This document shows, piece by piece, positions 10,272-31,687 of a stretch of DNA of 42,356 nucleotides. A model generated the notes under the pieces. It worked only from the letters and a program-made list of their open reading frames with translations. It searched no databases and was not told where the DNA came from. Positions within the stretch are counted from its first letter, which is position 1, and the number at the start of each line of letters is the position of its first letter. The stretch is from NCBI GenBank assembly GCA_001824275.1, contig MHWW01000013.1:1-42356 (forward strand). Direction: 5' to 3'. Source of the stretch: Candidatus Zambryskibacteria bacterium RIFOXYC1_FULL_39_10. GTDB lineage: Bacteria; Patescibacteriota; Minisyncoccia; Phycocordibacterales; WO2-35-19. The translations under genes were made by a program, and so were the position numbers.

Positions 10272-10641
10272 TCCGTGGTAGCTCAGCGGTAGAGCGGTCG
10301 CCTGTGTAGTGTCACGCAGCTTCCCAAAGAAATTTGGGATTAAAAACGAGGTGAACTCGGGGAAGCCCAAACTTTAAAAAGTGGGTAATCCCGAGCCAAG
10401 CCCAGCACAACTCCTGAAAGTAAATATTTATTTTTAGAAGTTGTGCTGGGAAGGTGTAGAGACTATCTCGCAAGAGAGTAGAGTGTGAGTGTAAAGCATT
10501 TGCATTCGAAGCGCCTCGCCCCCTAACGTACCGTGCGGGTTTATCCCGAGCGTAGTCGAGGGAGATGATATAGTCCATGCTTCTAGTAATAGGAGATTAA
10601 ATGTAAGCGATTGGTCGTAGGTTCGATCCCTACCCACGGAG
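10272..10641 (+). tRNA. tRNA-Asn(GUU), split by a group I intron (exons 10272-10305 and 10604-10641)
   Basis: Acceptor TCCGTGG/CCACGGA with G73, D-arm GCTC/GAGC, anticodon stem GTCGC/GCGAT, spliced loop CT-GT|T-AA, T-arm GTAGG-TTCGATC-CCTAC. CCA not encoded. Confidence 0.92.
10306..10603 (+). ncRNA. group I intron (298 nt, no ORF) at anticodon position 35/36
   Basis: P1 CTGT|GT/ACGCAG with U.G splice pair, P3 CGAGG/CCTCG, P4 CTCGGG/CCCGAG, P7 GAGACTAT/ATAGTCC, terminal G. Two hairpins between P7 and P3' are IA-like. Confidence 0.92.
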
Positions 10642-12285
10642 CAAAGGTCGTGAAAGTGAGGTGCAAGCCTCCTGTCGTGGCTTAACTGAGGACTTTTTTG
10701 AGGTTCGAAAATTATTTTGAGCCTCCGGAAGTTCCATCGAAGAGTGATTATTTATTTTTCGCAAAGACCCGCTAGAAGCAATGCTTTTAGTGGTTTTTTG
10801 TTGCAGTTCGAAATTTTTTTCTAGGTCGATCTTTTCTTGTACTCTTTTGGCTAGGACCGAAACGGATTCTTTCAGTTCATAAGTCGTTTCTCCGTCTTTC
10901 AATGTAAGCATCGAGAATACGTGCTTCAAAAGCATCCTTCTTTCCTCCGGAGTTCTTTTTTCATAAATTTCTCTGGCCCTTCTAGCTAGATCCATGATAT
11001 TGAGCCAAATTTCGAAATATTTAGTTTCTTCACTTTTGACCCTGTTTATCTGCTCCAAAAGAGTAGCTTGCGCCTCGTTTATTTCTTGCTGTTTCTTTTC
11101 CCAAAATTCGCGGCTGATCTTGTTATCGAGGCGATCATCATAAAGGTTATCCAAACGCCTCTGTAGGCCGCTGTAACGTTCATTGAGAGACTTTAAGGTA
11201 CTTTCCTTGTATTCAATCTCGGCGGAGTGATCATTCTTTATTTTTTCCTTAATCTGTTCAGCTTCAACATAAGTAATATTTTCAAAAAATTTGAATACCC
11301 CCATTAACTTCTGCTCAACCTGCTCCTCGGGAGTGTATTTTTTCTGACTACAACCACGATAATGAGTGCAATGGCAATAGACAGTACCTTTTTGAATTTC
11401 AAAAGTAATGGTTCCATCACATTCACCGCACTTAATCATTTTTCTGAAAGTGAATTGGTGCCTTTGGTATTTCGGGGCATCACCTCTGGTCCTTACTTGT
11501 TGGACCTTATCGTACAATTCTTTAGTTATCAAAGGTTCATGCGACCCAGCATAAACCAAATCGTTCCAACGCATGGCTCCGTAATAAAAGGGGTCTTTTA
11601 GGATATCCTCAACTTTGCTTTTTGCGGGTTTTTTACCGGCTCTATTTCTAAATCCTTGCTCATATAATTCATCCACTACTCTTTTCATGGAATAATTTCC
11701 AGTAGCATAAAGTTCAAAAATTCTTTTTACATACGAAGCAGTATTTTCATCGATCACATGAATCTTATGGCCCTTATCTCCAATAGTTTTATAACCAAGT
11801 GCTGGTTTGGTTGGCAGCCATCCCTGTCTGATTTTTTCAGCTTGGCCTTTTTTAACTTCTTCCGAAAGATTGTTTGTATAGAATCTAGCAATGGCTACTT
11901 TCATGTCCCAGACCAAATTTTCGTGGGCACGAGTATTCTGATTTAATACGAAATTTTCTTTAACAAAGTGGACTTCCTTTTCACTTTTTGTGTGGACCCA
12001 ATCGTCAACAGTGGCGGCATCCTTCAAACTACGTGTTAGGCGATCAATTTTTTCGCACAAAATGATGTTTACATCTCTTTTGTCAGCAAATGAAAGCATG
12101 TCACCGAGAGTTTTTCTGATCTGCCATTTACTTGCTGATTCCGTAATTTTAAATACCTTTGGCACTTCAAGGTTTTTCTTATCCGCGTATTCTTTCAAGA
12201 GTTTCTCTTGCGCGTCCAGAGAATAGCCCGTTTCTTCCTGTTCTTTGGAAGATACTCTGCAATAGATCACAGCCTTAGTTTTCAT
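10630..12285 (-). CDS. large serine recombinase 1; stop codon lies inside the tRNA-Asn 3' end
   Basis: IYCRVSSKEQ (catalytic Ser), DRLTR, recombinase domain (LGY, PFYYG, HEPLI), zinc ribbon CGEC...CTH..C, coiled coil. Confidence 0.95.
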   Translation of the reverse strand: MKTKAVIYCRVSSKEQEETGYSLDAQEKLLKEYADKKNLEVPKVFKITESASKWQIRKTLGDMLSFADKRDVNIILCEKIDRLTRSLKDAATVDDWVHTKSEKEVHFVKENFVLNQNTRAHENLVWDMKVAIARFYTNNLSEEVKKGQAEKIRQGWLPTKPALGYKTIGDKGHKIHVIDENTASYVKRIFELYATGNYSMKRVVDELYEQGFRNRAGKKPAKSKVEDILKDPFYYGAMRWNDLVYAGSHEPLITKELYDKVQQVRTRGDAPKYQRHQFTFRKMIKCGECDGTITFEIQKGTVYCHCTHYRGCSQKKYTPEEQVEQKLMGVFKFFENITYVEAEQIKEKIKNDHSAEIEYKESTLKSLNERYSGLQRRLDNLYDDRLDNKISREFWEKKQQEINEAQATLLEQINRVKSEETKYFEIWLNIMDLARRAREIYEKRTPEERRMLLKHVFSMLTLKDGETTYELKESVSVLAKRVQEKIDLEKNFELQQKTTKSIASSGSLRKINNHSSMELPEAQNNFRTSKKSSVKPRQEACTSLSRPLLRG

Positions 12286-12323
12286 GATTTTTATATTTTA
12301 GCACTTTTAATTTTTTATAAATA

Positions 12324-12556
12324 GAACGACTTTTACCTTTGATGTTATCTGGGGTAATGTTATTTCTTATGACACCGAGGATGCGGAGAAGTCATTGTGA
12401 TTACCTTTGAATCCAATGCTACCCTGAAGTATTCCGATGCTCTTCAAATGGCCGGGCGAGAAGTCGTCACTCGTTTCCCCGGCTTTCACAAGAACACCTG
12501 AATACTCCTTAATGGTTTTTACTAAGAGCAAGTTATCCTGATGCCCTTACAGCAGG
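12324..12556 (-). promoter_or_regulatory. structured 5' leader of recombinase 1 (candidate cis-regulatory RNA)
   Basis: Crossing pairs AGTATTC/GAATACT and TGCTCTT/AAGAGCA, hairpin GCCGGG/CCCGGC, loop AAGTCGT complementary to ACGACTT (12326-12332). Confidence 0.5.
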
Positions 12557-12557
12557 T

Positions 12558-12743
12558 TTATCCTCGATTTTTTTGGTCCCCAGCCAACACAAACTCTTTA
12601 GAGGCTGGATCTAAAGAGTTTGTGTTGACATTCGACCCTTTCTTTAAGTGATCATTGTAATCGTACTGAGCGAGCAGGTCGAAAAATTCTGCTAGAGCAG
12701 TGATGTTATCTTCGTTTAGAGCATGATCGTTCTCAACGTTCAT
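12558..12743 (-). CDS. small helical protein upstream of recombinase 1 (possible directionality factor or regulator)
   Basis: Amphipathic ALAEFFDLLAQYD. Positional counterpart at 26657-26830. Confidence 0.6.
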   Translation of the reverse strand: MNVENDHALNEDNITALAEFFDLLAQYDYNDHLKKGSNVNTNSLDPASKEFVLAGDQKNRG

Positions 12744-12853: not shown

Positions 12854-13564
12854 CTACTCCATTTTTATTTCTAGAATATAAAGATTCTTCCCAGCACTTT
12901 CAATAGATAATGGCATCTTATATTCCCTTAGTCTCATCCTTAGTTTTTTCAGAGCTGATCGGAATGAATCTTCATCATCATAATGCCCATATTCTTCAAG
13001 ATCAATTCTGGGTATTGGCTTGCCTTTGGACAGCACGTTTCCTTTTTTAATTTTTTTTGGATTCTTTAGAAAAAAATCCATTATGGCTTTTTGCCCACTT
13101 CTTATTGGCATTTTTACAGTTCCACACATCAAATAATTATTGATAATCTTTATTTCGCTGATCTTGGAAATTACTGGGACAACAACCTGTTCTTCAAATT
13201 GGGTTAAGATAATCTCTTTTTCTTTTAGAATTGACCTCAACTTTTCCATATCTTCAAACATCCGCAGAGCATCTTCTCTTTGAAGTTTTATATTTTTACC
13301 GGAATGAATTTTGTTAAAAGATGGTAAATAATCTTTTATTAAACTCCATTTCTCAAAGAAACGATGGTATCGATTATTTTTTAAAAATATTCTACAAGCT
13401 TTTTCATCCCATTTTTTATATTCCGCATAAATTTTTAGGGCCAAGCTTCTTTTTTCATTTTTGCTGAAAGGCGCACCATCAATAAGATGGATTAAGCCAA
13501 ACAGCTCTATCCTTAAAATTTCTACTTGAGCGGCATATTGTGGACCCAACCTGTCCAAATTCAT
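12854..13564 (-). CDS. putative regulator with C-terminal winged helix-turn-helix
   Basis: C-terminal DSFRSALKKLRMRL...IESAGKNLYIL resembles an OmpR-type recognition helix and wing. Divergent from RNA motif 1. Confidence 0.65.
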   Translation of the reverse strand: MNLDRLGPQYAAQVEILRIELFGLIHLIDGAPFSKNEKRSLALKIYAEYKKWDEKACRIFLKNNRYHRFFEKWSLIKDYLPSFNKIHSGKNIKLQREDALRMFEDMEKLRSILKEKEIILTQFEEQVVVPVISKISEIKIINNYLMCGTVKMPIRSGQKAIMDFFLKNPKKIKKGNVLSKGKPIPRIDLEEYGHYDDEDSFRSALKKLRMRLREYKMPLSIESAGKNLYILEIKME

Positions 13565-13602
13565 ATACTTACATATTCTCTCAATTATGCTAAAATTTCA
13601 AT

Positions 13603-13764
13603 ACAACTGAATATAAAGCCTAGTAGCCTAAACCGGTGGTCGCCGGCATGGTGAAAAGTGAAGAAAGTCGCGAACAGCGTAAAAAACCCATCATCAGGGT
13701 TGCTGTTCGCGCCATATCGGGAAACTGGTATGTGGCCTCCGGGCCATCTGGTGGTGGGCTTTTT
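13603..13764 (+). ncRNA. conserved structured RNA motif, copy 1
   Basis: Follows TGcTAAAAT (13588-13596). Multi-stem junction ending TGGGCTTTTT. Covaries with copy 2 at 27810-27967. Confidence 0.8.
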
Positions 13765-13778
13765 GTATGTAAAAAACT

Positions 13779-14018
13779 ATGTGGAAATTATTTTGGAACA
13801 TCTTGGCGGTAGTAGTCGGTTTATATACCGGATATAGAATTTTTATTTGGTGTGGGGAACATATCCCAGCTTTTGGATATTTTCCTTTGGGTGTGATTGG
13901 CGGTTTGGCTGCATTGGGATTTGGTATTTATTTGATACATGGAGTAGAACTTTTAATTTCTTGGATTATAGGGAGATTATTTAAAATTCAAAAGGAAGAA
14001 GATTTACCTTTCAATTAA
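13779..14018 (+). CDS. small membrane protein
   Basis: Two hydrophobic segments. First gene of cargo array 1. Confidence 0.7.
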   Translation: MWKLFWNILAVVVGLYTGYRIFIWCGEHIPAFGYFPLGVIGGLAALGFGIYLIHGVELLISWIIGRLFKIQKEEDLPFN

Positions 14019-14029
14019 AACCCACTCAA

Positions 14030-15022
14030 ATGTTAAATTTTTTCAAAAACAAATTCATTAAAACATACAAACCTATTCTAGTTATTGTGATTATCTTAAT
14101 CATTTGTATTTTTGGTTTTATTGGTGTTAGAAAATACAGCGATTACAAAAATTTGCAGCAAAACACTACCCAAGAACTGATACAACAGCAACAGAAATCA
14201 TTAGAAGAAGCAATAAAAGAAATAAATGATTTAAAATCTGCAAACCAAGCAACATCCGAAAAATTGGACCAAAAAATCAACCAAATTGAAAGCAAAAGCC
14301 AAAAAACTGATTCTATAGGTTCTACCGATTTAGAACCTTATATAACCGGTGTTGTAGAAATAACCTGTAAGGATTCGTCAGGGAGCGGCTCATTGTGGAA
14401 TATTGATTCTAAAAATGTAGTCATTACAAATGATCATGTAGTAGAAACTCCCTTTTATAGCTCGTATAACAAACAAAGCTATTGTGTTGTGTTTGCGGAA
14501 AAAATAAATGGGGATTTCGATATGATTTATACAGTATTTCCGTCTTCAAAATGGAATTGGAATAATGAAACGGATATTGCAGTTATGAATCTTGTTGAAA
14601 AGTTTTATCCGGATGGCAATCCTCTTCCTAGTGAATTGGAGAAACCAGCGAATCATTTGAATTTTAAAATTTCTACACTAAAAAAATGCCCATCACAAAT
14701 AGCAGTTGGGTCTCCTGTAGTAGTGATTGGATATCCTGCCTCTGGTATGCAAGAGACATTTAATGGTATGGGGATTGATGCAGCAAGAATTGTTACGAAT
14801 GGGGTGGTTAGTGGATATGACAAGACTGTAAATCCTCCGTATGGAGGACTATTAAACCCAAATTATTATGTATCAGCAAAGATTGATAGTGGAAGTTCTG
14901 GGGGTATAGCATTATCTAGAAACGACGACAAATTGTGTGTCTTAGGTATCCCTACATGGATAAACGTCGGTAATTATGACACCCAGGGCGTGATTCAAAA
15001 TATTCATAATGTTATGAAATAA
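14030..15022 (+). CDS. membrane-anchored trypsin-like serine protease
   Basis: TM and coiled coil, with catalytic triad motifs TNDHVV, TDIAV and DSGSSGG. Confidence 0.88.
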   Translation: MLNFFKNKFIKTYKPILVIVIILIICIFGFIGVRKYSDYKNLQQNTTQELIQQQQKSLEEAIKEINDLKSANQATSEKLDQKINQIESKSQKTDSIGSTDLEPYITGVVEITCKDSSGSGSLWNIDSKNVVITNDHVVETPFYSSYNKQSYCVVFAEKINGDFDMIYTVFPSSKWNWNNETDIAVMNLVEKFYPDGNPLPSELEKPANHLNFKISTLKKCPSQIAVGSPVVVIGYPASGMQETFNGMGIDAARIVTNGVVSGYDKTVNPPYGGLLNPNYYVSAKIDSGSSGGIALSRNDDKLCVLGIPTWINVGNYDTQGVIQNIHNVMK

Positions 15023-15037
15023 AAATTTATTTTTAAG

Positions 15038-15322
15038 ATGACAAATTCATTTAAAAAAGTTGTTGCTTACATTGGCTCTGTAATAGTTTGTTTATGGCTT
15101 GCTTTAAACATTTTCATTGGCTTTGCATATCCGTCCCTAGTTGCTTTTGACGGAATAAAATTATTTTTCACAAATCCTCAAGAATTGATCAGACAAATGG
15201 TTGATCTTTTCGGAATACTTGGTCTTACTGTCATAGTTTTGATATTTCCCGGTGTTTTGATCTGGAGTTACGAAAAGTTTTCTGTTTTTTTGTTAAGAAA
15301 AAGATTATCTAAATGTAAATAA
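15038..15322 (+). CDS. small membrane protein
   Basis: Two TM helices, with array spacing. Confidence 0.7.
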   Translation: MTNSFKKVVAYIGSVIVCLWLALNIFIGFAYPSLVAFDGIKLFFTNPQELIRQMVDLFGILGLTVIVLIFPGVLIWSYEKFSVFLLRKRLSKCK

Positions 15323-15323
15323 T

Positions 15324-15494
15324 ATGCCTCATCAATTTCAATCAATAAATTGTAAAAAGTGCGGTCACGGATACTGCCCGGTATGCAAGGACAAGTGTCC
15401 GAAATGCGGAGAAGTGGATGTGGCTGACGAAAAAACGATGGAGATTAGAGAGCAGATGAAAACATTATTAAAATCAAATGGAAGAAAAAAATAA
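15324..15494 (+). CDS. 56-aa Cys-rich zinc-finger microprotein (not in ORF track)
   Basis: MPHQFQSINCKKCGHGYCPVCKDKCPKCGE... has three CxxC pairs and fills the gap between its neighbours. Confidence 0.7.
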   Translation: MPHQFQSINCKKCGHGYCPVCKDKCPKCGEVDVADEKTMEIREQMKTLLKSNGRKK

Positions 15495-16290
15495 AATATC
15501 AAAAAAAATTATTCTGTATTTTATCGGGATCGGCCTTGTCTCTTTTTTACTGGGGACCCTAGTCATGATTATACCCGAAGAAACGGGTCCGGAAGATAAC
15601 TTCTGTAATGTTATGGTCCTCTCATTAAACGGAGTACTCGCAACCTATCTACCCCCTAAATCTGAAGACGATTCGGAGATGTTCTACTCCTCCGAAAATG
15701 TTTTGGCTGCCATAGAAAAAGCGGAAAATGATCCCGATGTCAAAGGTCTCATTCTTTCAATCAATAGCCCGGGCGGCGATATTGTGGCCGGGGAAGAAAT
15801 AGCCAATGCCCTCAAGGCCATGAAGAAGCCAAATGTCGCTGTAATACGCAATATGGGAGCTTCTGCAGCCTTCCTTGCTTCCTCCGGAGCCGACAGAGTA
15901 TATGCTTCCAAACTGTCTGACACTGTTGGAATCGGGGTCACAATGTCTTACACCGATCAGACAGAGAAAAACAGGAAAGAGGGCTTAACTTTTAACCAAC
16001 TCTCAACCGGTAAATTCAAAGATGCCGGAGATCCGGATAAACCACTTACCGAAGAAGAAAAATTAATCTTCATGATTGATCTAGAAAAAGCTCACAAAAT
16101 TTTCGTTGAAGAAATAGCTCAAAACAGAAATCTCAAAATTGAAGATGTGTCTAAAATATCTACCGGCAGAACATATCTCGGGGAAGAGGCTCTCAATTTT
16201 GGCCTTATTGATGAGATTGGAAGTATAGATACTGCCGTTAAATACATTGAAAGTTTAACTGGAGAAAAAGCCGAAACTTGTTGGTATTAA
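15478..16290 (+). CDS. sppA: signal peptide peptidase SppA-like S49 peptidase
   Basis: INSPGG, MGASAAF, GIGV, GKFKDAG, GLIDEIG. Confidence 0.9.
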   Translation: MEEKNKISKKIILYFIGIGLVSFLLGTLVMIIPEETGPEDNFCNVMVLSLNGVLATYLPPKSEDDSEMFYSSENVLAAIEKAENDPDVKGLILSINSPGGDIVAGEEIANALKAMKKPNVAVIRNMGASAAFLASSGADRVYASKLSDTVGIGVTMSYTDQTEKNRKEGLTFNQLSTGKFKDAGDPDKPLTEEEKLIFMIDLEKAHKIFVEEIAQNRNLKIEDVSKISTGRTYLGEEALNFGLIDEIGSIDTAVKYIESLTGEKAETCWY

Positions 16291-16324
16291 AAACTAATTT
16301 AAAAAATATGGGATTAGCGATAAG
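16288..16324 (+). repeat. ~36-nt direct repeat, copy A (duplicated gene-start region)
   Basis: TAAAAACTAATTTAAAAAATATGGGATTAGCGATAAG, compared with 17111-17146. Confidence 0.7.
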
Positions 16325-16338
16325 TAAAAATAAATTAT

Positions 16339-17106
16339 ATGAAAAAATGTCCATTTTGCAAAAATGAAATTAATGTGGACGTAGCGCAATGCCCAATCTG
16401 TAAAATGATACTTATTGAAAAAATACCTCATATTAATCCTACTTCAGAACGAGTCTACACTTCATCATCACCAAAAGAACCAAAAAAGCAAACGCATACT
16501 TCTTATTACACTCCCCCTCAAAAATCTTCTTCTAAAGAGCGGTTTAAAATTCCAAATGGTAGTGGTTGGATAATTTCAATCGTTGGATCAATTGCACTCA
16601 CTTTAATTTTGAATGGTAATTATGGTTCTTCGAATCCGCTCCCCGCGCCATTATCTGATCCGACTATCGTAGATACTAATCTATCTTTAACACCAATTCC
16701 TCATACTTCATATTATTCACTTCCAAATGGCACAGTTCTCTTTTCCTCATCACTTAATGGAGAGGGCATTTTAAGCATTTCGAATGGGACCAAATCCGAC
16801 GCAGTCGTAAAACTCATTACAACAGGCGGTAGCAAAGTTTATTCTGTTTATGTGCGTGCCAATAGCAGCTATTCGATTGAAAATATAAACGACGGTATCT
16901 ATAGATTGCTTTTTTCTTTTGGTTCAAATTGGGACCCGAATCAAAATAAGTTTTTGGTTAATCCAAGGGCGGAAGCTTTTGATGATACTTTCGATTTTGA
17001 GACTTCAGATACCAAATCTACAGGTTTTACTATTACTTTAAATCCGGTAATTGACGGAAAAGCCACAACGAGCCCACTCGATTCAAATGTATTTGATAAA
17101 TACTAA
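16339..17106 (+). CDS. zinc-ribbon + TM + extracellular beta-rich domain protein
   Basis: CPFC...CPIC, S/P/T-rich linker, one TM, C-terminal DGIYRLLFSFGSNWD. Confidence 0.8.
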   Translation: MKKCPFCKNEINVDVAQCPICKMILIEKIPHINPTSERVYTSSSPKEPKKQTHTSYYTPPQKSSSKERFKIPNGSGWIISIVGSIALTLILNGNYGSSNPLPAPLSDPTIVDTNLSLTPIPHTSYYSLPNGTVLFSSSLNGEGILSISNGTKSDAVVKLITTGGSKVYSVYVRANSSYSIENINDGIYRLLFSFGSNWDPNQNKFLVNPRAEAFDDTFDFETSDTKSTGFTITLNPVIDGKATTSPLDSNVFDKY

Positions 17107-17110
17107 ACTT

Positions 17111-17146
17111 TAAAAATTAATTTAAAAACATGGGATCAGCGATAAG
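17111..17146 (+). repeat. ~36-nt direct repeat, copy B
   Basis: TAAAAATTAATTTAAAAACATGGGATCAGCGATAAG. Confidence 0.7.
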
Positions 17147-17288
17147 AGTAGCTATACAACTTTTAGAAGAATTTTGGAAAATGCCTTTCGAAGGAAAACT
17201 CCTGTTCATTATTCCAACAGTAATTGTAGTCAGTTTGATTATTTGGAAAGAGGAAAGAAATAAAAATAAAATATGGAATAAAAAATAA
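17130..17288 (+). CDS. 52-aa single-TM microprotein (not in ORF track)
   Basis: MGSAIRVAIQLLEEFWKMPFEGKLLFIIPTVIVVSLIIWKEERNK... Confidence 0.55.
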   Translation: MGSAIRVAIQLLEEFWKMPFEGKLLFIIPTVIVVSLIIWKEERNKNKIWNKK

Positions 17289-17322
17289 AATTTTTCATAA
17301 ATTCATGTTTTTGTTATTTGTT

Positions 17323-17395: not shown

Positions 17396-17485
17396 CAAGA
17401 TTAAGTGAATATGGAACCTTTGTATTGAGAGGTGTATTATGGGACCATATCGCCGATCAACTTTTGATTTTTAATATCAAAAAAT

Positions 17486-18310: not shown

Positions 18311-18336
18311 CCGAAAAATATAATTTTTTATAAAAA

Positions 18337-23343: not shown

Positions 23344-25152
23344 TTAATTTTTAAGTGTCGGATCAGCAAGCAGTTCTTTTAATTCCGCCAAAGCAATTGA
23401 AGGAAAGGGGTATTCATTTACCCAATCTATCGTTCTAAAATCGTCAGCCAGTGCGATGAGGGCAGGAAATTTACCTTCAAATTCTCCACTTTCTCCTTTA
23501 TTTACAACATATTCTCTTGGTTCGAACCCCACAATTTCGGACCTTGCAACTTGGAGTCCATTTATGTAAGCAGAAATTGATTTAGTGTTGTTAATCCTAA
23601 CTTTTCCACGATTAAACAGAAGGTTCGAACCAAACTTAACTAAAGCATCCCTCTTTTTTTCAAACGGTCCATTTTCAAGTAGCTCCGACATTTCGATAGA
23701 TAAATTTACAATTTTTTTCGCTTCACTAACCCAATCTATATTTTCAATCTCGGCCAGCTTTTTATTTCCTTGAATCGGGCTAATTTGCCTCTTGGCGAGA
23801 CTAAACTCCTCGTCGTTGATCAAACCTCTGTCATGCATATCCAAGAGCCTTAGGAGCTTCTTTTGGCCGTTTTCGGAGGATTGCTCGTTTGAACGAGTTA
23901 CCGCCTTATTTTCTTGAAGCTCTTTGTCTTTGATTTCGTCAATATGTCTTAATGCCCAGTCTGCTAACCCTTTGGAAATCTGGAAGTTTTGGACCAAGTA
24001 GTCAATCACTTCGCCATTAAGCTTCTTCTCTTCGATACTCACAGCCTTAATTCCGGGGCTTTTTCTTTCTTTGACGCTGGCGTAGAAAACATAGTTTTTA
24101 AATTTCGGCCTGTTCATATTTTGGATCTTGATACCACACTTTGGGCACTGGTCCTGGTTGATGTAAGAAAACTTATGCTTGCACGCCGTGCATCTTATTT
24201 GAAATTTTGGGTCTCCGACTACAGCACAATTGTTAACCTCATCCCAAATAAGACCACCATACAGCAGGTTTCTTTTTTGTGATCGCGGCCTGCCTTTTTT
24301 ACCAAGCATGTCTTGAATTTGCCAATACTGATCCTCGGTTATCATTCTTTTCAGTTTTTTATCCAAATCTTGCCTTACTACCTCACCATCTTCTTTGGCA
24401 TAATAAAAGAAGCCGGCATATACGGGATTTCTCAAAAGAAAATACAGATATGAAAGAGAGATTAATTTACCACCCTCTCTTTTCCTTGGGGGCGTAGTCA
24501 ATTTTAGTTCGTCCCGCGCTATAAAATAAAGTTTTCTCACAGAATACGTCCCCTCAAGAAATTTTTCAAAAATCATTTTAACGAGAGGCCACCTAACAGG
24601 ATCCTCATACCAGTCTCTGTTGCCTTTCTCCCTGGTCATATCATTAAAATACCCTATATGAGCCAAACCGTTCGGTAGCCCTTTAAGGTATCTTGTTCTT
24701 AAGCCAGTCTTTACGTGCTCGCTCTTATCGTCCGAGTCCTTCTTTGAAAAAATAAGCTCTAAAGCGAGAAATGCTTTATCTGTTGCTGTATTGTAGTAAA
24801 CTTTAGAAGGAGTTCTAACCTCTACCAATTTTTTAAGATCCATAAAATAGATAATCATCCCAGCATCAACAGGATTTCTGGATAGGCGATTGGGGAAAAG
24901 GACGAGCAATCCGTTTGCCTCTCCGGCACTAATTCTCTGGATCATTTCGTTAAATTTCGGTCGGCCCGGAGTATGGGCACTCTGCGACTCGTAAATAATG
25001 TCAACAATTTCCAGTCCGTTTTTCTCGGCAAACTCCCCGAGTTCTCGGATTTGAGTTTCGATGGACTGGACCTGTCTATCCTCGGCTTCGCTCGATTTAC
25101 GGCAATATATGAAATACCTTAATTTTCTAATGACCGGCATTAAATTTTTCAT
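23344..25152 (-). CDS. large serine recombinase 2
   Basis: IYCRKSSEAEDRQ, GRPKF, NRLSRN, NPVYAG, zinc insert CTAC...CPKC, GSNL, FEP, DDFRT. Confidence 0.95.
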   Translation of the reverse strand: MKNLMPVIRKLRYFIYCRKSSEAEDRQVQSIETQIRELGEFAEKNGLEIVDIIYESQSAHTPGRPKFNEMIQRISAGEANGLLVLFPNRLSRNPVDAGMIIYFMDLKKLVEVRTPSKVYYNTATDKAFLALELIFSKKDSDDKSEHVKTGLRTRYLKGLPNGLAHIGYFNDMTREKGNRDWYEDPVRWPLVKMIFEKFLEGTYSVRKLYFIARDELKLTTPPRKREGGKLISLSYLYFLLRNPVYAGFFYYAKEDGEVVRQDLDKKLKRMITEDQYWQIQDMLGKKGRPRSQKRNLLYGGLIWDEVNNCAVVGDPKFQIRCTACKHKFSYINQDQCPKCGIKIQNMNRPKFKNYVFYASVKERKSPGIKAVSIEEKKLNGEVIDYLVQNFQISKGLADWALRHIDEIKDKELQENKAVTRSNEQSSENGQKKLLRLLDMHDRGLINDEEFSLAKRQISPIQGNKKLAEIENIDWVSEAKKIVNLSIEMSELLENGPFEKKRDALVKFGSNLLFNRGKVRINNTKSISAYINGLQVARSEIVGFEPREYVVNKGESGEFEGKFPALIALADDFRTIDWVNEYPFPSIALAELKELLADPTLKN

Positions 25153-26099: not shown

Positions 26100-26100
26100 T

Positions 26101-27792: not shown

Positions 27793-27809
27793 AATGTTAA
27801 TATGTAAAC

Positions 27810-27967
27810 ATAATTGAATAGAGTTTGAAAGGACCTAACCTCATTGCTTCGGCAGTGAGCACGGTCCAAAGTCGAGTAAAGCGTAAAAAGGCCCAACGGG
27901 CTCGCTTTACTCGCCATATCGGGAAACCGGTATGAGAGGCTTCGGTCTCTACCCGTTTGGGCTTTTT
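27810..27967 (+). ncRNA. conserved structured RNA motif, copy 2
   Basis: Follows TGtTAATAT (27795-27803). Same stem order as copy 1 with compensatory changes, and UUCG and GAAA tetraloops. Confidence 0.8.
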
Positions 27968-27999
27968 GCGCATAAGACAAAAAGTCCACCAACAAAGAT

Positions 28000-28482
28000 A
28001 TGTTTGGCTGGACAAAAAACAATACAACAACATCTCAGTCGGATAAAAAGGAAGAAAAAACTTCTTTCTTCTCTTGGCGTATTAGTGGTCCAGAGTTAAA
28101 AAGACAAATTGAAAATTATCACACTTTTAAAATCACCGAGTCATATCGTGGCATATCAACAATAATAATTATTGCAATCTTTGGTTTGGTATCTCTCCTA
28201 AGTCTTTTTAGTATTGGTGTTGAACCTTCAGAAAAAGTAATCAGCATATTTTTTAATGCGGTGGTTATGCTACCAGTAGCATTCTTTGTGTATAAAGGTC
28301 ATCGCTGGGCAATAGTAGTTATGGTGGCGTTAATTACTTACGGTGTTGGTTCCTATCTTTTAGAAAGTGGCAAGATATCGGTTCTTGCTATTTTCATTTG
28401 GCTACTTCTTATCCCGCGTTTTTGGAAAGCGTTAAAGATTGAGAACGAAAGACGGAAAGTTAAAGCTCCGTCAACATTTTAA
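28000..28482 (+). CDS. four-TM membrane protein
   Basis: Hydrophobic helices. First gene of cargo array 2. Confidence 0.8.
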   Translation: MFGWTKNNTTTSQSDKKEEKTSFFSWRISGPELKRQIENYHTFKITESYRGISTIIIIAIFGLVSLLSLFSIGVEPSEKVISIFFNAVVMLPVAFFVYKGHRWAIVVMVALITYGVGSYLLESGKISVLAIFIWLLLIPRFWKALKIENERRKVKAPSTF

Positions 28483-28500
28483 TAATAGTTAAACGAGTAT

Positions 28501-29340
28501 ATGAAAAAGAAATATATATTAACAACGATTGCTCTCATTGTGTTTGTTGCTCCACAAGTGGTCTTTGCCTCTTGGTGGAACCCCCTGACTTGGAAAGTTT
28601 TTAAGTTTTTACAGAAGTCGGAAGTAAAAACCGAACAAGTTATGAACGCTCAGGAAGCCTTAAACACAGAAAACAATGATCAGCCGTCAGAGTTGGAGGA
28701 GTTAAAAAAAGAAATAGAAGAGCTGAAAAAGGCTCAAACTTCTAATACCACAAAAAATACCCCCGCTAAACAGCCGGTCCAGTCAGCAACGGTAAAAGAT
28801 GTCGACCCCACACCAATTACCGTATCAATCCCCCAATATAATGCCCAACTATGCATAGCTATTAATGAGGAGGAGAAGTTGTTGAATAAAAACCTATCCG
28901 TATCCATCGGGTATTTCCAAAGGGACTTAATACCTGTATTTGATGCTCAAGTAAAAACAACAGACTATACGCAAAGATATGACAACCTAACTAAAGTAAA
29001 GACCTCATTTTTTAAAGCTTTAAGCGATTTTAAAAACAAAGATATTGCAAGAATAAGTTCTTCCTACTTGGATCCTGTTTATATAAAAGAATTAAAGGAT
29101 ACACTCACAGCTCTTGCGGACGGATATGAAGATGTTTGGGACCAATTTCAGATAGATAGTTTGAAGCTCAAAAGTATAGATTTTTACGACAGCTATGACA
29201 AAAATATAGGCTATGCCCTCATAGAAAAAGACTACGATTTGCTAAAAGAAAAAAATAAACTACTGCTTAAATCTATAGAGCTCTGGGAGCTTACATTTGA
29301 TAAATATAAAGAAGTGAAAGTTAAAAATTCTTGCTCTTAA
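28501..29340 (+). CDS. secreted coiled-coil protein with ASWWNP motif
   Basis: Signal peptide ending VFA-SWWNPLTW, then coiled coil LEELKKEIEELKK. Confidence 0.8.
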   Translation: MKKKYILTTIALIVFVAPQVVFASWWNPLTWKVFKFLQKSEVKTEQVMNAQEALNTENNDQPSELEELKKEIEELKKAQTSNTTKNTPAKQPVQSATVKDVDPTPITVSIPQYNAQLCIAINEEEKLLNKNLSVSIGYFQRDLIPVFDAQVKTTDYTQRYDNLTKVKTSFFKALSDFKNKDIARISSSYLDPVYIKELKDTLTALADGYEDVWDQFQIDSLKLKSIDFYDSYDKNIGYALIEKDYDLLKEKNKLLLKSIELWELTFDKYKEVKVKNSCS

Positions 29341-29349
29341 TACTAAACT

Positions 29350-29640
29350 ATGAAAAATGCGCTCAATATGTTTTTAGAGTTTTGGAGGTTATATTTTTCA
29401 AGTGTATTTTGGATGATTGTATATCTGCCGCGCCTAATGCTCTGGTTCCTGATGATTTTGGGACCCGTCGCACCTATTGTCATCATTGGCCACAAAATAG
29501 CTGAGACGCCCGGGTCCGAAGGATTTTTAATTGCTACGAATGTAATCTCCGCCGGCCTAATCTATTACCTCTTGGAACACACAAAATGGGGCGAATGGAC
29601 CAAGAAAGTATCTCCGTTAAAAGACTACCCGGATGATTAA
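29350..29640 (+). CDS. small membrane protein
   Basis: Hydrophobic helices, with array spacing. Confidence 0.7.
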   Translation: MKNALNMFLEFWRLYFSSVFWMIVYLPRLMLWFLMILGPVAPIVIIGHKIAETPGSEGFLIATNVISAGLIYYLLEHTKWGEWTKKVSPLKDYPDD

Positions 29641-29659
29641 ATTTTATACATTTTAAAAT

Positions 29660-30136
29660 ATGGACAAACAGGAACTTTTTAACACAGTATTTCGCCAGAT
29701 GTTGGATTATGCTGACAATGATTTTGTTAAACATCTTGCTGATTGGGGAGTAGAAATATACGACTTGCTTGATAGTAATAATAAGATAATTTATACATAC
29801 CAAAATGAATTGAATTATGACCAATTTATATACGCAGTAGCTCTTGCCCGCATCGTTGGTTTGTTTGGAATGCGCGCCTTCAATGACCACCTATCGGACG
29901 AAATAGAATTTGGCGATCCTTTGCCAAAAACAAGACTAAAGAATATATGGGTCCCTGTGTATTCCAAAATAGACGAGATATATTCGGCGCTTATTGATAT
30001 TTACAAACAACAAGGAGAGGACGACCCAAACCACAAAATTTTGTCATCGTTAAAAGAAGTTTTTGGAGAGATTAGTCAGACAAGTTCCAATGAACCACAA
30101 GCATACGATTTTGTGAGAAATCGTTTTAATTATTGA
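29660..30136 (+). CDS. hypothetical protein
   Basis: ORF in the co-oriented array. Confidence 0.7.
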   Translation: MDKQELFNTVFRQMLDYADNDFVKHLADWGVEIYDLLDSNNKIIYTYQNELNYDQFIYAVALARIVGLFGMRAFNDHLSDEIEFGDPLPKTRLKNIWVPVYSKIDEIYSALIDIYKQQGEDDPNHKILSSLKEVFGEISQTSSNEPQAYDFVRNRFNY

Positions 30137-30141
30137 ATAAT

Positions 30142-30618
30142 ATGACATATCACATTAAAAGACCGAACTATATGTGTAAAAAATGCGCTGTTATATACAT
30201 TCCTTTCAATAAGGACATTGCCTGTCCTAATTGCGGAAATCAGGCAGATACGGAGGAGCATTTTGATTTTATTATTGATATAGCGAACTCTATGAAAGCC
30301 CACAAAATACGATACGGTTCTTTTATGCCACCGGCTTTCTTTTGCGATGGCTCATTGGCCGCAAATATACAGTCAAGCTGTCTCAAGATTTTTGACAAAT
30401 TTGAAGCAGCAAAACCCAAGGATGAGAAAGGCTGGTTATCAAAGGCCGTGGTAGAAAAAATCGAGTTTTCCGAGGAATATAAATATCTGATTAAACACAT
30501 CACTGATATTATTTTTAGTATATATGGGCTATATAAAAAGCAAAACAAGTTCGCTCCATCAAAACTCAAGAGATGGCTTTCGGAAGAGTTAAAAAAATTA
30601 TTGCCTTACCTACCTTAA
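30142..30618 (+). CDS. hypothetical protein with N-terminal zinc ribbon
   Basis: CKKC...CPNCG. ATG 30142 preferred over TTG 30133. Confidence 0.7.
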   Translation: MTYHIKRPNYMCKKCAVIYIPFNKDIACPNCGNQADTEEHFDFIIDIANSMKAHKIRYGSFMPPAFFCDGSLAANIQSSCLKIFDKFEAAKPKDEKGWLSKAVVEKIEFSEEYKYLIKHITDIIFSIYGLYKKQNKFAPSKLKRWLSEELKKLLPYLP

Positions 30619-30622
30619 TGTT

Positions 30623-31093
30623 ATGGCATCTAATCCTTTAAAAAGAAAGATTGAAAAAATAAAAAGAGCAGTTGTTGGAGCTATGGAAGAAAGCGAGCTG
30701 ACCCGTATGAAAGCCAAATATTACATCGATACTTTGTGGCCGGAGGAGATGGAAAAAGCCGCCAAAATACAGCTACCTAAAAAATTCTCTCGGTGGTTTA
30801 ATCAAAAGGTTATAGTCCGCAGAGGGCAAGGAAATACCATTGATGTTTCAACACTGTCTGGTTTTGAGGATTATCTCAATAAATCAAGAGAAGCTTATTA
30901 CAAAATTAAACCCGCCTCTCCTTATGAATTTAACTTCTTTCCAAGGTGGGCTTGTGGACCGATTTTTCAAACAGAGATAGATAAAGCCGGTGTGCTATTT
31001 GTGCCGAAGCAGACATATCAAAACTTAAAATTGCCAGGTGTATTCGTGTTTAAAATAACTAAAAGAGGACTTGAAATAACTGCTAATAAGTAA
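30623..31093 (+). CDS. hypothetical protein
   Basis: Last gene of array 2, convergent with terS-like 2. Confidence 0.7.
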   Translation: MASNPLKRKIEKIKRAVVGAMEESELTRMKAKYYIDTLWPEEMEKAAKIQLPKKFSRWFNQKVIVRRGQGNTIDVSTLSGFEDYLNKSREAYYKIKPASPYEFNFFPRWACGPIFQTEIDKAGVLFVPKQTYQNLKLPGVFVFKITKRGLEITANK

Positions 31094-31598
31094 AGGTCTT
31101 CACATCATTGAGTTTTGCATCTTTACCAGTGCTGAGCATTTTAATCAATGTGTTTATGCTTTCTAATGTTGGGTTTACATCATCCTCTTGCTTATCTGGT
31201 TCTTTTTTATAATATCCCTTGAGTTTATAAGCCATATCTAAACCTTTAATAACGGCGTTAGTATCTAATTCTTCTATCTCCATTACCAATTCCCCATGAC
31301 GCGTTGTCCTCACTTTCCGTGGCACGGTTAAAAGCTCCAAATGTTTCTTTAGCAATAAATCATCCGGTATTCTATCTGCAAAACTTTCTATAATCCTACA
31401 AATCTTAGGTTTTCTTAAGTTTTCTGAAGCTATTACAGCGGCACTGTTTCTGTTTTTTACATTATAATTTCTTACTGCTGCCTCCGTTCCATTACCAGTC
31501 AGAATATAGTCTTTTATGAACCCTGCCTCTTTTTTAGAGACCGAATATTCACCCCTATTTCTAATTGTTATTGGATTTTCTGTAAGGGTAAGTTCCAT
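31083..31598 (-). CDS. terminase small subunit-like protein 2
   Basis: FIKDYILTGNGTEAA..Y....SAAVIASENLRKPKI and KGLDMAYKLKGYY. ATG 31598 preferred. Confidence 0.8.
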   Translation of the reverse strand: MELTLTENPITIRNRGEYSVSKKEAGFIKDYILTGNGTEAAVRNYNVKNRNSAAVIASENLRKPKICRIIESFADRIPDDLLLKKHLELLTVPRKVRTTRHGELVMEIEELDTNAVIKGLDMAYKLKGYYKKEPDKQEDDVNPTLESINTLIKMLSTGKDAKLNDVKTFTY

Positions 31599-31687
31599 AG
31601 CAAAAATTGTATCATATATTATTTTAACAATACCAACAATTAACAAACTTATTCCAGCCCCCAACGAAGATATAGAGGCTATTTATT

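What the first reader, a model, noticed from the sequence alone, without database searches (positions are those of the whole stretch)
10639..31670. Repeated satellite-like module: serine recombinase, microprotein, regulator, RNA, cargo, TerS
Seen: the same order occurs twice. Module 1: 10630 LSR, 12558 small ORF, 12854 wHTH, RNA 1, cargo to 22908, terS-like 22945. Module 2: 23344 LSR, zinc protein, RHH, 26657 small ORF, 26944 gene, RNA 2, cargo to 31093, terS-like 31083. I see no capsid, portal, large terminase, primase, relaxase or T4SS gene. Established: PICI/SaPI satellites encode TerS alone to hijack helper packaging, but typically use tyrosine integrases and pri/rep genes. Inference: an undescribed family of ~8-13 kb Patescibacteria satellites or integrative elements, here in tandem.
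Basis: partly seen in the sequence, partly recalled or inferred. Interest (0 to 1): 0.85.

Follow-up and report, generated by a model that had tools for sequence, protein, structure and literature searches.

The report
Tandem serine-recombinase islands with LOOT RNA
Two mobile DNA islands sit head to tail beside a tRNA gene in a tiny groundwater bacterium; each has a serine recombinase, a known but unexplained structured RNA (LOOT), variable cargo and a phage DNA-packaging gene at the far end, so they may be the first candidate phage satellites in this group of bacteria.

Summary
The repeated layout is real. Each module has a large serine recombinase (LSR), small ORFs, a structured RNA, a divergent cargo operon and a terS-like gene. 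The RNA is the Rfam family LOOT (RF03000).

**Integration.** Module 1 abuts the 3' end of an intron-bearing tRNA-Asn. Module 2 starts 7 nt from module 1's terS-like ORF.

**Layout elsewhere.** The same order recurs in other Patescibacteria:
- L154 is a 4.75-kb version at tRNA-Glu.
- L155 is a tandem pair at tRNA-Asn, with an LSR 56% identical to LSR1.
- L333 is a 12.8-kb contig with identical ends that carries LSR, a microprotein, Prim-Pol and LOOT.

**LOOT and LSR.** LOOT lies within 5 kb of an LSR for 17 of 32 copies in the family. Of 119 metagenome loci, 45 hold an LSR.

**The two terS-like genes.** TerS2 is a genuine small terminase. Its relatives in ~40-kb phages precede TerL and portal genes, and those phages carry neither LSR nor LOOT. 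TerS1 is only a 36-residue HTH relic with no homologues.

**Packaging genes across the family.** They are optional. The TerS2 family appears in 1 of 119 loci, and a methylase, small-HTH, TerL trio in 15 of 150 sources. No structural gene family was seen.

**Not shown.** No excision was detected in this genome.

**Verdict.** These are LSR-LOOT integrative islands, and the ones with packaging genes are plausibly satellite-like.

The parts
10272..10641 (+). tRNA-Asn(GUU), copy 1. It is the native integration target. Exon 1 is 10272-10305, the group I intron 10306-10603 and exon 2 10604-10641.
   Evidence: Rfam Intron_gpI at 74.8 bits. I folded the exons by hand. Intron-less orthologues in G033:C20, G023:C13 and G024:C14 are contiguous exactly at these borders. 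The left-flank synteny DprA..PAP2-tRNA is kept in G023:C13 and G034:C8.
10630..12285 (-). LSR1, a large serine recombinase of 551 aa. Its last ~12 nt, including the stop codon, lie inside the tRNA-Asn 3' end (attL).
   Evidence: Pfam. It is 56% identical to L155 LSR_A, which abuts tRNA-Asn in the same way. The same geometry is seen for 10 further LSRs of 46.
12558..12743 (-). 61-aa microprotein directly upstream of LSR1.
   Evidence: 36% identical to the 62-aa ORF at the same position in L155. Similar small ORFs precede the LSR in L333, L154 and L035 by eye. No Pfam hit.
12854..13564 (-). 236-aa protein, first gene of the recombinase-side operon and a possible winged-helix regulator.
   Evidence: No Pfam, PHROG or padloc hit. 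There is a weak Atlas structural lead to Trans_reg_C for residues 132-236, with TM 0.34-0.41.
13568..13766 (+). LOOT RNA 1 unit: a promoter-like site (13568-13596), a conserved 5' box (about 13604-13614), the Rfam core (13625-13746) and a conserved 3' tail with a U-run (to about 13766).
13779..22908 (+). Cargo operon 1. It encodes a small membrane protein, a trypsin-like protease, an S49 peptidase, tRNA-Arg(TCT) at 17323-17396, a secreted SNase+Excalibur nuclease, a GNAT and unknown proteins.
   Evidence: Pfam. ARAGORN. SNase homologues recur in 6 LOOT neighbourhoods.
22945..23337 (-). TerS1, a 130-aa ORF. Only residues 89-124 (DNA 22963-23073) are a terminase-type HTH, so it is probably a decayed terS at the far end of element 1. 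It lies 7 nt from the LSR2 stop.
   Evidence: Pfam and PHROG. In the six-frame search it scores 25.7 bits, which is borderline. No homologues were found. BLASTP against TerS2 gave E 0.57 and hhalign against A1 gave probability 0.3.
23344..25152 (-). LSR2, a large serine recombinase of 602 aa, at the left end of element 2.
   Evidence: Pfam. It is 25% identical to LSR1 and 31% to LSR-a on contig C17.
25276..27792 (-). Recombinase-side genes of element 2: 198 aa (Cys-rich), 60 aa, 80 aa, the 57-aa microprotein (26657-26830) and 282 aa (26944-27792).
   Evidence: ORFs. No Pfam hits. The 282-aa protein is 27% identical to L153 p241.
27797..27970 (+). LOOT RNA 2 unit: the 5' box, the Rfam core (27832-27950) and the 3' tail.
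28000..31093 (+). Cargo operon 2: six ORFs of 96-279 aa. The first is a membrane protein.
   Evidence: No Pfam family above cut-off.
31083..31664 (-). TerS2, a phage-type small terminase at the far end of element 2, with no TerL beside it. The likely true start is the internal Met near 31601.
   Evidence: Pfam 36.7 bits. phrog_51 covers residues 43-188. It has 167 homologues, nearly all carrying PF03592. The family profile hits the PDB small terminases 4zc3, 2cmp and 3zqp.
31789..40918 (-). Defence island next to element 2: 244 aa, PDC-S11/DUF4268, a HerA-like ATPase, a type I methylase fused to a specificity domain, 83 aa, a type I restriction subunit and 117 aa. Whether it belongs to element 2 is open.
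   Evidence: Pfam and padloc. The 244-aa protein is 52% identical to a gene beside LOOT in G006:C3.
40943..41248 (+). tRNA-Asn(GUU), copy 2, with a group I intron at 40977-41210. Its acceptor stem differs from copy 1 by compensatory changes.
   Evidence: Rfam 69.4 bits. Sequence. Direct repeats D1, D2 and D5.

Best explanation
The stretch holds two tandem members of a family of integrative islands of Patescibacteria that are moved by a large serine recombinase.

**Anatomy of each element**
1. A recombinase-side operon with variable proteins, a ~60-aa microprotein and the LSR. It ends at the attachment site, so the LSR stop codon lies ~12 nt inside the 3' end of a tRNA gene.
2. A LOOT RNA, transcribed divergently from a promoter-proximal conserved box. 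It lies 5-50 nt ahead of the first cargo ORF.
3. A variable cargo operon encoding secreted or membrane proteins, nucleases, proteases and restriction-modification genes.
4. A 'far-end slot', co-directional with the LSR and convergent with the cargo. In part of the family this slot holds DNA-packaging genes.

**This window**
- Element 1 (about 10642-23337) sits at tRNA-Asn. Its slot keeps only a decayed terS (TerS1).
- Element 2 (23344 to about 31700) was joined to it at the LSR2/TerS1 border. It carries an intact small terminase (TerS2) captured from ~40-kb phages of these bacteria.

**Most likely working**
1. The LSR integrates and excises the element at the tRNA end.
2. In the circle the LSR gene runs into the packaging slot across attP.
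3. LOOT acts in cis on cargo transcription.
4. When a related phage infects, TerS2 directs the phage's TerL to the element's DNA, so the element spreads in phage particles in a satellite-like way.

**Shown:** the anatomy, its recurrence, the tRNA junction geometry, the tandem arrangement, the identity of TerS2, and one circular-looking relative.

**Inferred:** excision of these two copies, any role of LOOT, and packaging by a helper phage.
For: **Domains and RNA.**

**LOOT goes with LSR**
- G000 has 5 LSRs and 6 LOOT copies. Five of the LOOT copies lie 1.2-2.7 kb from an LSR.
- In the family, 17 of 32 LOOT copies lie within 5 kb of a Resolvase domain and 22 of 32 within 10 kb. Six of the other 10 are at contig ends or on short contigs.
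- In 119 metagenome loci found with a LOOT 3' pattern, 45 hold an LSR. Of these, 28 are upstream and divergent, 15 downstream and co-directional, and 2 otherwise.
- The only widely shared gene family around LOOT is the LSR, with 24 members in 18 of 27 sources.

**Integration at tRNA ends**
- The LSR1 stop overlaps tRNA-Asn.
- Ten further LSRs of 46 overlap the 3' end of a convergent tRNA: Asn x3, Gln x2, Lys x2, Glu, Asp and Leu.
- Relatives with an empty site and the same left synteny exist.

**Same order elsewhere**
- L154 reads TerS, then cargo running from LOOT, then 265 aa, 115 aa, 75 aa and the LSR, ending at tRNA-Glu, in 4.75 kb.
- L155 is a tandem pair with 28 nt between the LSR_B stop and the TerS_A start. 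Its LSR_A is 56% identical to LSR1 and sits at tRNA-Asn. Its microprotein is 36% identical to the window's.

**Circular relative**
- L333 is a whole 12,866-nt contig with identical 97-nt ends. The LSR ORF (46% identical to LSR1) closes across them. It also holds a microprotein, Prim-Pol+PriCT_1 and LOOT at 86.6 bits.

**TerS2**
- It has 167 homologues.
- In 12 of 12 inspected IMG/VR loci, terS is followed by a 516-772-aa ORF. In one of the 12 a 171-aa ORF lies between, and in another two small ORFs. A 597-682-aa ORF comes next.
- Two of 3 tested downstream ORFs are GpA_ATPase TerL, and 1 of 2 is an SU10 portal.
- None of 50 such phage records holds LOOT or a Resolvase domain, and 15 of the 50 are at least 90% complete.
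- Seven of 10 genomic hits are in MAGs titled as Patescibacteria lineages.
- All 4 orphan-TerS genomic loci hold LOOT, against 0 of 5 phage-context loci scanned.
- G000 has no TerL or portal by four searches.

**Packaging slot in relatives**
- A trio of ParB/N6_N4 methylase, a small HTH protein and TerL sits convergent with the LOOT cargo in 15 of 150 LOOT sources. Three of these are genomes of the window's genus.
- No portal, capsid or tail family is among the 25 families listed for 137 ORFs of these loci.
Against: - No joint at any module border appeared in Logan contigs of four runs. Raw reads were not available.
- Most family members lack packaging genes. Terminase_2 is over its cut-off in 2 of 39 genomes. 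The TerS2-family HMM hits 1 of 119 loci. Three of the 5 LSR-LOOT modules of G000 have no terminase hit.
- TerS1 is a relic.
- Orphan TerS copies are scattered among phage TerS and mostly sit on long branches, 1.4-2.5 against a median of 0.64. That fits decay as well as a change of specificity.
- No LOOT was found in 9 of 80 IMG/VR loci that hold LSR1 relatives.
- The cargo looks like ordinary island cargo.
- The identical ends of L333 could also come from a tandem repeat.
- In one search a further 110 families, each with fewer members, were not displayed. A single structural gene cannot be excluded.
Confidence: 0.5

Rival explanations
1. These are ordinary serine-recombinase genomic islands, spread by some route other than phage particles or no longer mobile. 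The terminase genes are passenger debris picked up from phages and play no part in the islands' life cycle.
For: - Packaging genes are absent from most LSR-LOOT elements.
- TerS1 is decayed.
- Orphan TerS genes have several origins and long branches.
- The cargo is typical island cargo: defence genes, nucleases and proteases.
- No excision signal was found.
Against: - Packaging genes sit again and again in the same slot and orientation in unrelated lineages, as intact ORFs: TerS in the window, L035 and L152-L155, and the methylase, HTH, TerL trio in 15 sources.
- All 4 orphan TerS loci found by a TerS-only search turned out to hold LOOT. Random debris would not do that.
Confidence: 0.28
2. The TerS-like proteins are DNA-binding helpers of the recombinase, acting as a directionality factor or regulator at attP, and not as packaging proteins.
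For: - terS lies directly next to an LSR gene on the same strand in the window (7 nt), L155 (28 nt) and G006:C3.
- In the circle it would follow the LSR across attP.
- TerS1 keeps only the HTH.
Against: - TerS2 and the other orphan copies are full length. They include the part beyond the HTH and are 31-50% identical to one another, and TerS2 is up to 52% identical to phage TerS that precede TerL.
- Most LSRs of the family work without one.
- In relatives the same slot holds a TerL, which has no known role in site-specific recombination.
Confidence: 0.1
3. The modules are the remains of two prophages whose structural genes were deleted.
For: - terS is a phage gene.
- An S49 peptidase, a family that includes prohead proteases, lies in cargo 1.
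- phrog_19262 hits the 431-aa cargo ORF.
Against: - The phages that carry the TerS2 family have no serine recombinase and no LOOT, in 0 of 50 records.
- No structural family is hit in the window.
- The compact layout is conserved down to 4.75 kb in L154.
- The S49 peptidase is shared with G006:C3 as cargo beside LOOT.
Confidence: 0.07

Closest known systems
SaPI/PICI phage satellites
   Same: A small chromosomal island with an integrase at one end and its own small terminase but no large terminase or capsid genes. TerS is used to redirect a helper's packaging motor, a principle described in passages of 10.1101/2024.04.22.590561. Elements of 8-13 kb compare with ~37-43 kb related phages. A relative (L333) carries a Prim-Pol replication gene.
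   Different: The recombinase is a large serine recombinase, not a tyrosine integrase (the tyrosine integrase of PICIs is recalled, not from a call). No pri-rep gene or repressor was recognised in the window. terS is optional in the family. A conserved structured RNA heads the cargo. The host is a Patescibacterium. Helper dependence is not shown.
PLE of Vibrio cholerae
   Same: A satellite that uses a large serine recombinase (PMC6002521, abstract in the search listing) and parasitises a lytic phage. Here the phages with the related TerS also lack any serine recombinase, in 0 of 50 records.
   Different: PLE has no recognisable TerS homologue (passages of 10.1101/2024.04.22.590561). No sequence relation to PLE genes was tested here. 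PLE does not integrate at tRNA ends, as far as I recall.
Serine-recombinase integrative elements and prophages in general
   Same: The Resolvase, Recombinase and zinc-ribbon architecture. The recombinase gene sits at the very edge of the element. No long direct repeats mark the ends.
   Different: The stop codon regularly lies inside a tRNA 3' end. Elements accrete in tandem. The link to the LOOT RNA and to a packaging-gene slot is, to my knowledge, not described. Two searches for 'LOOT motif' and 'LOOT RNA' found no paper on its context.
LOOT RNA motif (Rfam RF03000; Weinberg et al. 2017, PMC5737381)
   Same: Both RNAs match the model end to end above the gathering score.
   Different: Rfam files it as an sRNA of unknown role. 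Here it has a genomic context (LSR islands, head of a cargo operon), a conserved 5' box, and a 3' extension outside the Rfam model that pairs with the apical loop of the long hairpin.

Membership tests
Large serine recombinase | N-terminal Resolvase catalytic domain followed by a Recombinase domain and a zinc ribbon | tested here: met
   LSR1 hits all three Pfam domains. LSR2 hits Resolvase and Recombinase, and Cys pairs are visible in the zinc-ribbon region, but Zn_ribbon_recom gave no hit at E<=0.01.
Site-specific integrative element | Defined junctions with the host chromosome at a specific target | tested here: inconclusive
   The left junction at the tRNA-Asn 3' end is well supported. The right junctions are placed only by analogy with L154 and L155.
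Site-specific integrative element | Excised circular form or empty site in the same population | tested here: not met
   No joint at module borders in contigs of 4 runs, and no raw reads were on hand. Only a relative, L333, looks circular.
Small terminase, Terminase_2 family (TerS2) | N-terminal HTH plus the following oligomerisation region, related to TerS genes that precede TerL | tested here: met
   Pfam 36.7 bits over profile positions 3-98. phrog_51 covers residues 43-188. The family profile hits SF6-type TerS structures at E 3e-7 to 7e-7. Phage relatives precede TerL.
Small terminase, Terminase_2 family (TerS1) | N-terminal HTH plus the following oligomerisation region | tested here: not met
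   Only profile positions 7-41 match, at the C-terminal end of the ORF. No homologues were found, and hhalign against the TerS2 family gave probability 0.3.
PICI/SaPI-type satellite | Own TerS (or a cos/pac mimic) without TerL and without virion genes | tested here: met
   Met for element 2. Element 1 has only a relic.
PICI/SaPI-type satellite | Tyrosine integrase, pri-rep replication module and a helper-sensing repressor | tested here: not met
   The integrase is a serine recombinase. No primase or replication family was hit in the window. Prim-Pol occurs in relatives, in 5 of 109 ORFs. A repressor is not recognisable.
PICI/SaPI-type satellite | Induction by and packaging in particles of a helper phage | not testable with these tools
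   This needs virus-particle fractions or an infection experiment. No RNA or raw-read run was listed.
LOOT RNA (RF03000) | Full-length match to the covariance model above the gathering score | tested here: met
   58.4 and 81.4 bits against 46.4, over model positions 1-121.

The most novel reading that the evidence does not exclude
LSR-LOOT elements are a radiation-wide family of phage satellites of Patescibacteria. They park at tRNA ends, pile up in tandem, and carry either a small terminase alone or a complete terminase with no capsid. They ride in the particles of lytic ~40-kb phages. The LOOT RNA, with its two competing conserved pairings ahead of a U-run, is the switch that turns the cargo or transfer programme on when the helper arrives.
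Probability: 0.2. Interest if true: 0.85.

Novelty: new variant of a known kind. Interest (0 to 1): 0.68.

Why it matters
- Patescibacteria have tiny genomes and few described mobile elements. A 744-kb genome here carries five serine-recombinase islands.
- The work gives the orphan LOOT RNA motif its first genomic context. It also extends the motif's structure, which makes its function testable.
- If the elements with packaging genes are satellites, they would be the first in this radiation. They would also be a new combination: a serine recombinase, a recognisable terminase and a structured RNA.
- The recombinases come with natural tRNA targets that can be read off the junctions, which is of practical interest for site-specific integration tools.

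Tried and rejected
- **Single island between two tRNA copies: rejected.** I considered one 30-kb island bounded by the two tRNA-Asn copies as att repeats. Both copies are complete genes with self-consistent acceptor stems. The YceG gene to the right is itself accessory: it is 34% identical to the copy on contig C22 and 78-79% identical to two copies near LSRs in G034. The native right flank of relatives maps to contig C19.
- **LOOT as a phage RNA: not found.** None of 50 phage records with TerS2-family genes holds it, nor do 9 of 80 IMG/VR loci with LSR1 relatives.
- **LSR plus TerS as the ends of a temperate phage: rejected.** None of 50 phage records holds a Resolvase domain.
- **Excision evidence: none obtained.**
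  - The look-up of sequencing runs listed 19 DNA holders and no RNA holder.
  - Read laying on 12301-32300 with 4 runs gave only short contigs. Its four joints have short sides (21-69 letters) and none lies at a module border.
  - Run X17 covers a diverged element 2 but little of element 1. Loose ends near 23156/23171 (X12) and 31701 (X17) did not match the other element end by eye. I draw nothing from them.
- **Single-protein search for TerS2 in IMG/VR:** found nothing. The alignment search did.
- **Function of the 236-aa and 282-aa proteins:** no Pfam, PHROG or padloc hit. The Atlas gave only a weak lead for the first and nothing for the second.
- **The 110-aa HTH ORF of L333:** it is not related to the TerS2 family by hhalign.
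- **P3 of LOOT:** on the MAFFT alignment it counts only 53.7% paired. I put this down to register shifts and rely on the Rfam model for that helix.
- **attP of L333 against attL of the window:** only a ~10-nt resemblance, not conclusive.
- **My recollection that PLE has a TerS homologue:** wrong, and corrected from the paper.
- **Tools and files closed to me:** Supplements were closed, and the LOOT description in the supplement of PMC5737381 may already name neighbouring genes.
- **Not used:** Structure prediction, fold search, complex prediction and the search of protein representatives.

Full report
**Observation**

- LSR1 (10630-12285, -) and LSR2 (23344-25152, -) are large serine recombinases by Pfam. 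They are only 25% identical to each other.
- The two RNAs are members of the Rfam family LOOT, RF03000. They lie at 13625-13746 (58.4 bits) and 27832-27950 (81.4 bits), against a gathering score of 46.4.
- Both terS-like ORFs hit Pfam Terminase_2 and phrog_51.
- Between 10.3 and 41 kb no main ORF hits a capsid, portal, large terminase, primase, relaxase or secretion family. About half of them hit nothing.
- The two small ORFs and the two 'regulators' are not detectably related to each other. The labels wHTH, zinc protein and RHH have no Pfam support.

**Setting**

The window is a whole contig (C13) of a 744-kb genome that is 98% complete. Runs holding it are groundwater and soil metagenomes.
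- Positions 1-10100 are housekeeping genes. Their order up to a PAP2 gene and a tRNA is kept in two genomes of the same genus.
- That tRNA is tRNA-Asn(GUU), split by a group I intron between anticodon positions 35 and 36. Exons are 10272-10305 and 10604-10641 (Rfam, sequence).
- Three relatives have the intron-less gene, contiguous exactly at these borders.
- A second complete copy with its own intron lies at 40943-41248. Its acceptor stem differs by compensatory changes.
- The region to its right is not chromosome backbone either. The YceG gene at 41283 is 34% identical to the copy on contig C22, which matches the YceG of relatives. It is 78-79% identical to two copies near LSRs in G034.
- In relatives, the genes that follow the tRNA-Asn region map to contig C19 of this genome. 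So everything from 10642 to the contig end is accessory DNA.
- Positions 31789-40918 form a defence island: PDC-S11, HerA and a type I restriction-modification system.

**LOOT marks serine-recombinase elements**
- This genome has 5 LSRs and 6 LOOT copies, on contigs C13, C17 and C20. Five LOOT copies lie 1.2-2.7 kb from an LSR and the sixth is at a contig start.
- In the 39 genomes of the family, LOOT occurs in 19, with 32 copies in all. Resolvase domains occur in 31, with 85 matches.
- Seventeen of the 32 LOOT copies lie within 5 kb of a Resolvase domain and 22 within 10 kb. Six of the remaining 10 are next to a contig end or on a contig of 4.2 kb.
Forty-five hold an LSR. In 28 it is upstream and divergent, as in the window. 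In 15 it is downstream and co-directional, and in 2 otherwise.
- Of 22 loci with at least 5 kb on the 5' side, 10 have the divergent LSR within 5 kb. Of 22 with at least 6 kb on the 3' side, 7 have the co-directional one within 6 kb.
- In an all-against-all comparison of ORFs around LOOT, the LSR is the only widely shared family, with 24 members in 18 of 27 sources. A methylase-like family (10 in 8) and the SNase nuclease (6 in 6) come next.
- Two literature searches for the motif's name found no paper on its context.

**Anatomy of the RNA unit**
- In all 32 copies looked at, an ORF starts shortly downstream on the same strand. The distance is 5-50 nt in the eight cases I measured, and the ORF mostly encodes a membrane or secreted protein.
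- Upstream there is a -10-like hexamer. For LOOT 1 the promoter-like site is at 13568-13596. It is followed by a conserved box of about 11 nt, which would then be at or near the transcript's 5' end (this placement is an inference).
- Downstream of the Rfam model there is a conserved tail ending in a U-run. It is complementary to the apical loop of the long hairpin.
- The mean duplex energy is -26.0 kcal/mol for each copy's own tail. It is -19.4 for tails swapped between copies and -16.7 (sd 3.1) for shuffled tails.
- On an alignment of 36 copies, 21 pairs are 90.3% paired, against 46-55% when the partner is slid. Twelve pairs show compensatory changes, and 0 of 500 shuffles reach the observed scores.
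- The loop and its closing stem cannot easily hold a helix of this length at the same time. I therefore read the two pairings as alternatives or as a strained pseudoknot. With the U-run, this looks like a terminator or attenuator ahead of the cargo. This is inference.

**Junctions and relatives**
- The last ~12 nt of LSR1, stop codon included, lie in the tRNA-Asn 3' end.
- Among 46 full-length LSRs near LOOT with sequence beyond their stop, ARAGORN finds a convergent tRNA overlapping the stop in 10: Asn x3, Gln x2, Lys x2, Glu, Asp and Leu. One is LSR-b on contig C17 of this genome. LSR1 is an eleventh case, missed because of the intron.
- Occupied sites read the same few bases after the tRNA end in the window, G023 and G028. 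Empty sites differ. G023 keeps only remnants homologous to the LSR1 3' end.
- L155, a 218-kb contig of a MAG titled Saccharibacteria, holds an orthologous element at tRNA-Asn. Its LSR is 56% identical to LSR1 and its microprotein 36% identical to the window's. LOOT, cargo and TerS are at the far end. A second element's LSR ends 28 nt before that TerS. This mirrors LSR2 and TerS1 in the window, which are 7 nt apart.
- L154, a 606-kb contig, holds the same order in 4.75 kb at tRNA-Glu.
- L333 is a complete 12,866-nt metagenome contig with identical 97-nt ends. Closed into a circle of 12,769 nt, it completes an LSR ORF of 547 aa that is 46% identical to LSR1. It also carries a 52-aa microprotein, a Prim-Pol/PriCT_1 protein and LOOT. 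It is the only sign of a free or tandemly repeated form.
- For the window's own elements, contigs of four runs show no junction at module borders.

**The terminase genes**
- TerS2 has 167 homologues, nearly all carrying PF03592. The family profile hits solved small terminases at E 3e-7 to 7e-7.
- In IMG/VR, 99 loci encode relatives. In 12 of 12 inspected, terS is followed by a 516-772-aa ORF and then a 597-682-aa ORF. In 2 of the 12, one or two small ORFs lie between terS and the large ORF.
- Pfam of 3 of the first ORFs TerL (GpA_ATPase) and 1 of 2 of the second a portal.
- None of 50 such phage records, 15 of them at least 90% complete, holds LOOT or a Resolvase domain.
- In species genomes, 10 loci encode relatives, 7 of them in MAGs titled as Patescibacteria lineages. 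Six have a TerL-sized ORF downstream. Four are orphans, and all four hold LOOT. Three of those have an LSR whose stop overlaps a tRNA. None of 5 phage-context loci scanned holds LOOT.
- The genome of the window has no TerL or portal by Pfam GpA_ATPase, SU10_portal, a phage TerL protein and my own TerL profile.
- TerS1 matches only the HTH (residues 89-124). It has no homologue among 5.8 billion proteins apart from its own record, and hhalign does not relate it to the TerS2 family. I read it as a relic.
- terS is not a core gene. Terminase_2 is over its cut-off in 2 of 39 family genomes, and my TerS2-family profile hits 1 of 119 metagenome loci.
- On a tree of 28 TerS sequences the six orphans need six changes of label. 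Well-supported branches force at least two origins. Five of the six sit on long branches.

**A packaging slot**
- Pfam tallies of 109 ORFs upstream of 48 LSRs near LOOT showed large-terminase domains (Terminase_6C 4, Terminase_6N 3, GpA_ATPase 2), Terminase_2 (3), HTH_Tnp_1_2 (5), N6_N4 methylase (6) and replication domains (Prim-Pol 5, AAA_25 4, Phage_rep_O 3).
- Six of 10 ORFs of ~500 aa tested singly hit large-terminase domains.
- A profile built from them finds such an ORF in 15 of 150 LOOT sources, including three genomes of the window's genus. It is preceded by a ~130-aa HTH protein and mostly by a ~425-aa ParB/methylase. It is convergent with the LOOT cargo and co-directional with the LSR. 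This is the place that TerS1 and TerS2 hold in the window.
- Among 137 ORFs of these 15 loci, the 25 families listed include no portal, capsid or tail family. A further 110 families with fewer members were not shown.

**Reading**
- *Shown:* a conserved, mobile-looking element type with LSR, microprotein, LOOT, cargo and an optional packaging slot. Also shown are its insertion at tRNA 3' ends, tandem accretion, and the phage origin of TerS2.
- *Inferred:* these two copies can still excise, LOOT gates the cargo operon, and TerS2 recruits a helper's TerL.
- I put the satellite-like use of the packaging genes at about even odds within the best explanation.
- The main rival is that they are inert passengers (0.28). 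A role as recombinase helper (0.10) and prophage decay (0.07) follow.

**Comparison with known systems**
- The elements work most like SaPI/PICI satellites, which have their own TerS and no TerL or capsid. They fail that family's membership on the integrase type and on a recognisable pri-rep and repressor module.
- They share the serine recombinase and a lytic-looking partner phage with PLE. PLE has no recognisable TerS (passages of 10.1101/2024.04.22.590561; abstract of PMC6002521).
- The RNA is a known motif whose context and 3' extension appear to be new.

**Limits**
- Only contigs, not reads, could be laid.
- The right-hand junctions are placed by analogy.
- The kinship of the compared genomes inflates the counts.
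- The metagenome loci were chosen by a LOOT sub-pattern that fits perhaps half of the copies.
- ORFs in relatives are my own six-frame calls.

Noticed in passing
window 10272-10641 and 40943-41248: There are two complete tRNA-Asn(GUU) genes, each split by a group I intron (298 and 234 nt) between anticodon positions 35 and 36. Intron-less orthologues in the same genus confirm the borders. One literature search ('group I intron' + 'tRNA-Asn') listed only organelle papers. A bacterial tRNA-Asn group I intron may be undescribed.
   Followed up: partly
window 41283-42290; G034:C4:16924-17916 and 57299-58291: This is an accessory YceG-like gene. It is 34% identical to the genome's other copy and 78-79% identical to two copies in a relative, each about 4.5 kb from an LSR. 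A cell-wall enzyme gene seems to travel with these islands.
   Followed up: partly
window 31789-40918: This is a defence island: PDC-S11 (DUF4268), a HerA-like ATPase, a type I methylase fused to a specificity domain, and a type I restriction subunit.
   Followed up: partly
window 17323-17396: tRNA-Arg(TCT) lies inside the cargo of element 1.
   Followed up: no
window 17486-18310; L044, L046, L050, L037: A secreted SNase+Excalibur nuclease is a recurrent cargo gene of LOOT elements. Copies are 54-69% identical, and in L050 the gene follows directly after LOOT.
   Followed up: partly
window 3659-4012; contigs C2, C5, C6, C8 of G000: A DUF559 (Vsr-like endonuclease) gene is present in at least seven places in a 744-kb genome.
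   Followed up: no
L071:4082-5566, L078:4415-5950, L151:5917-7452: The ~40-kb phages that carry the TerS2 family encode a Cpn60/GroEL-like protein a few genes upstream of terS.
   Followed up: no
L160:9419-9495, L161:14965-15041, L162:14363-14437: RT-18 RNA (RF03021) hits at the gathering threshold lie in IMG/VR contigs that encode LSR1 relatives.
   Followed up: no
G000 contig C17 (31 kb): Three further LSR-LOOT modules lie on this contig. Two are in tandem, and one abuts tRNA-Gln. Together with C13, these islands make up a sizeable share of the accessory DNA of this genome.
   Followed up: partly
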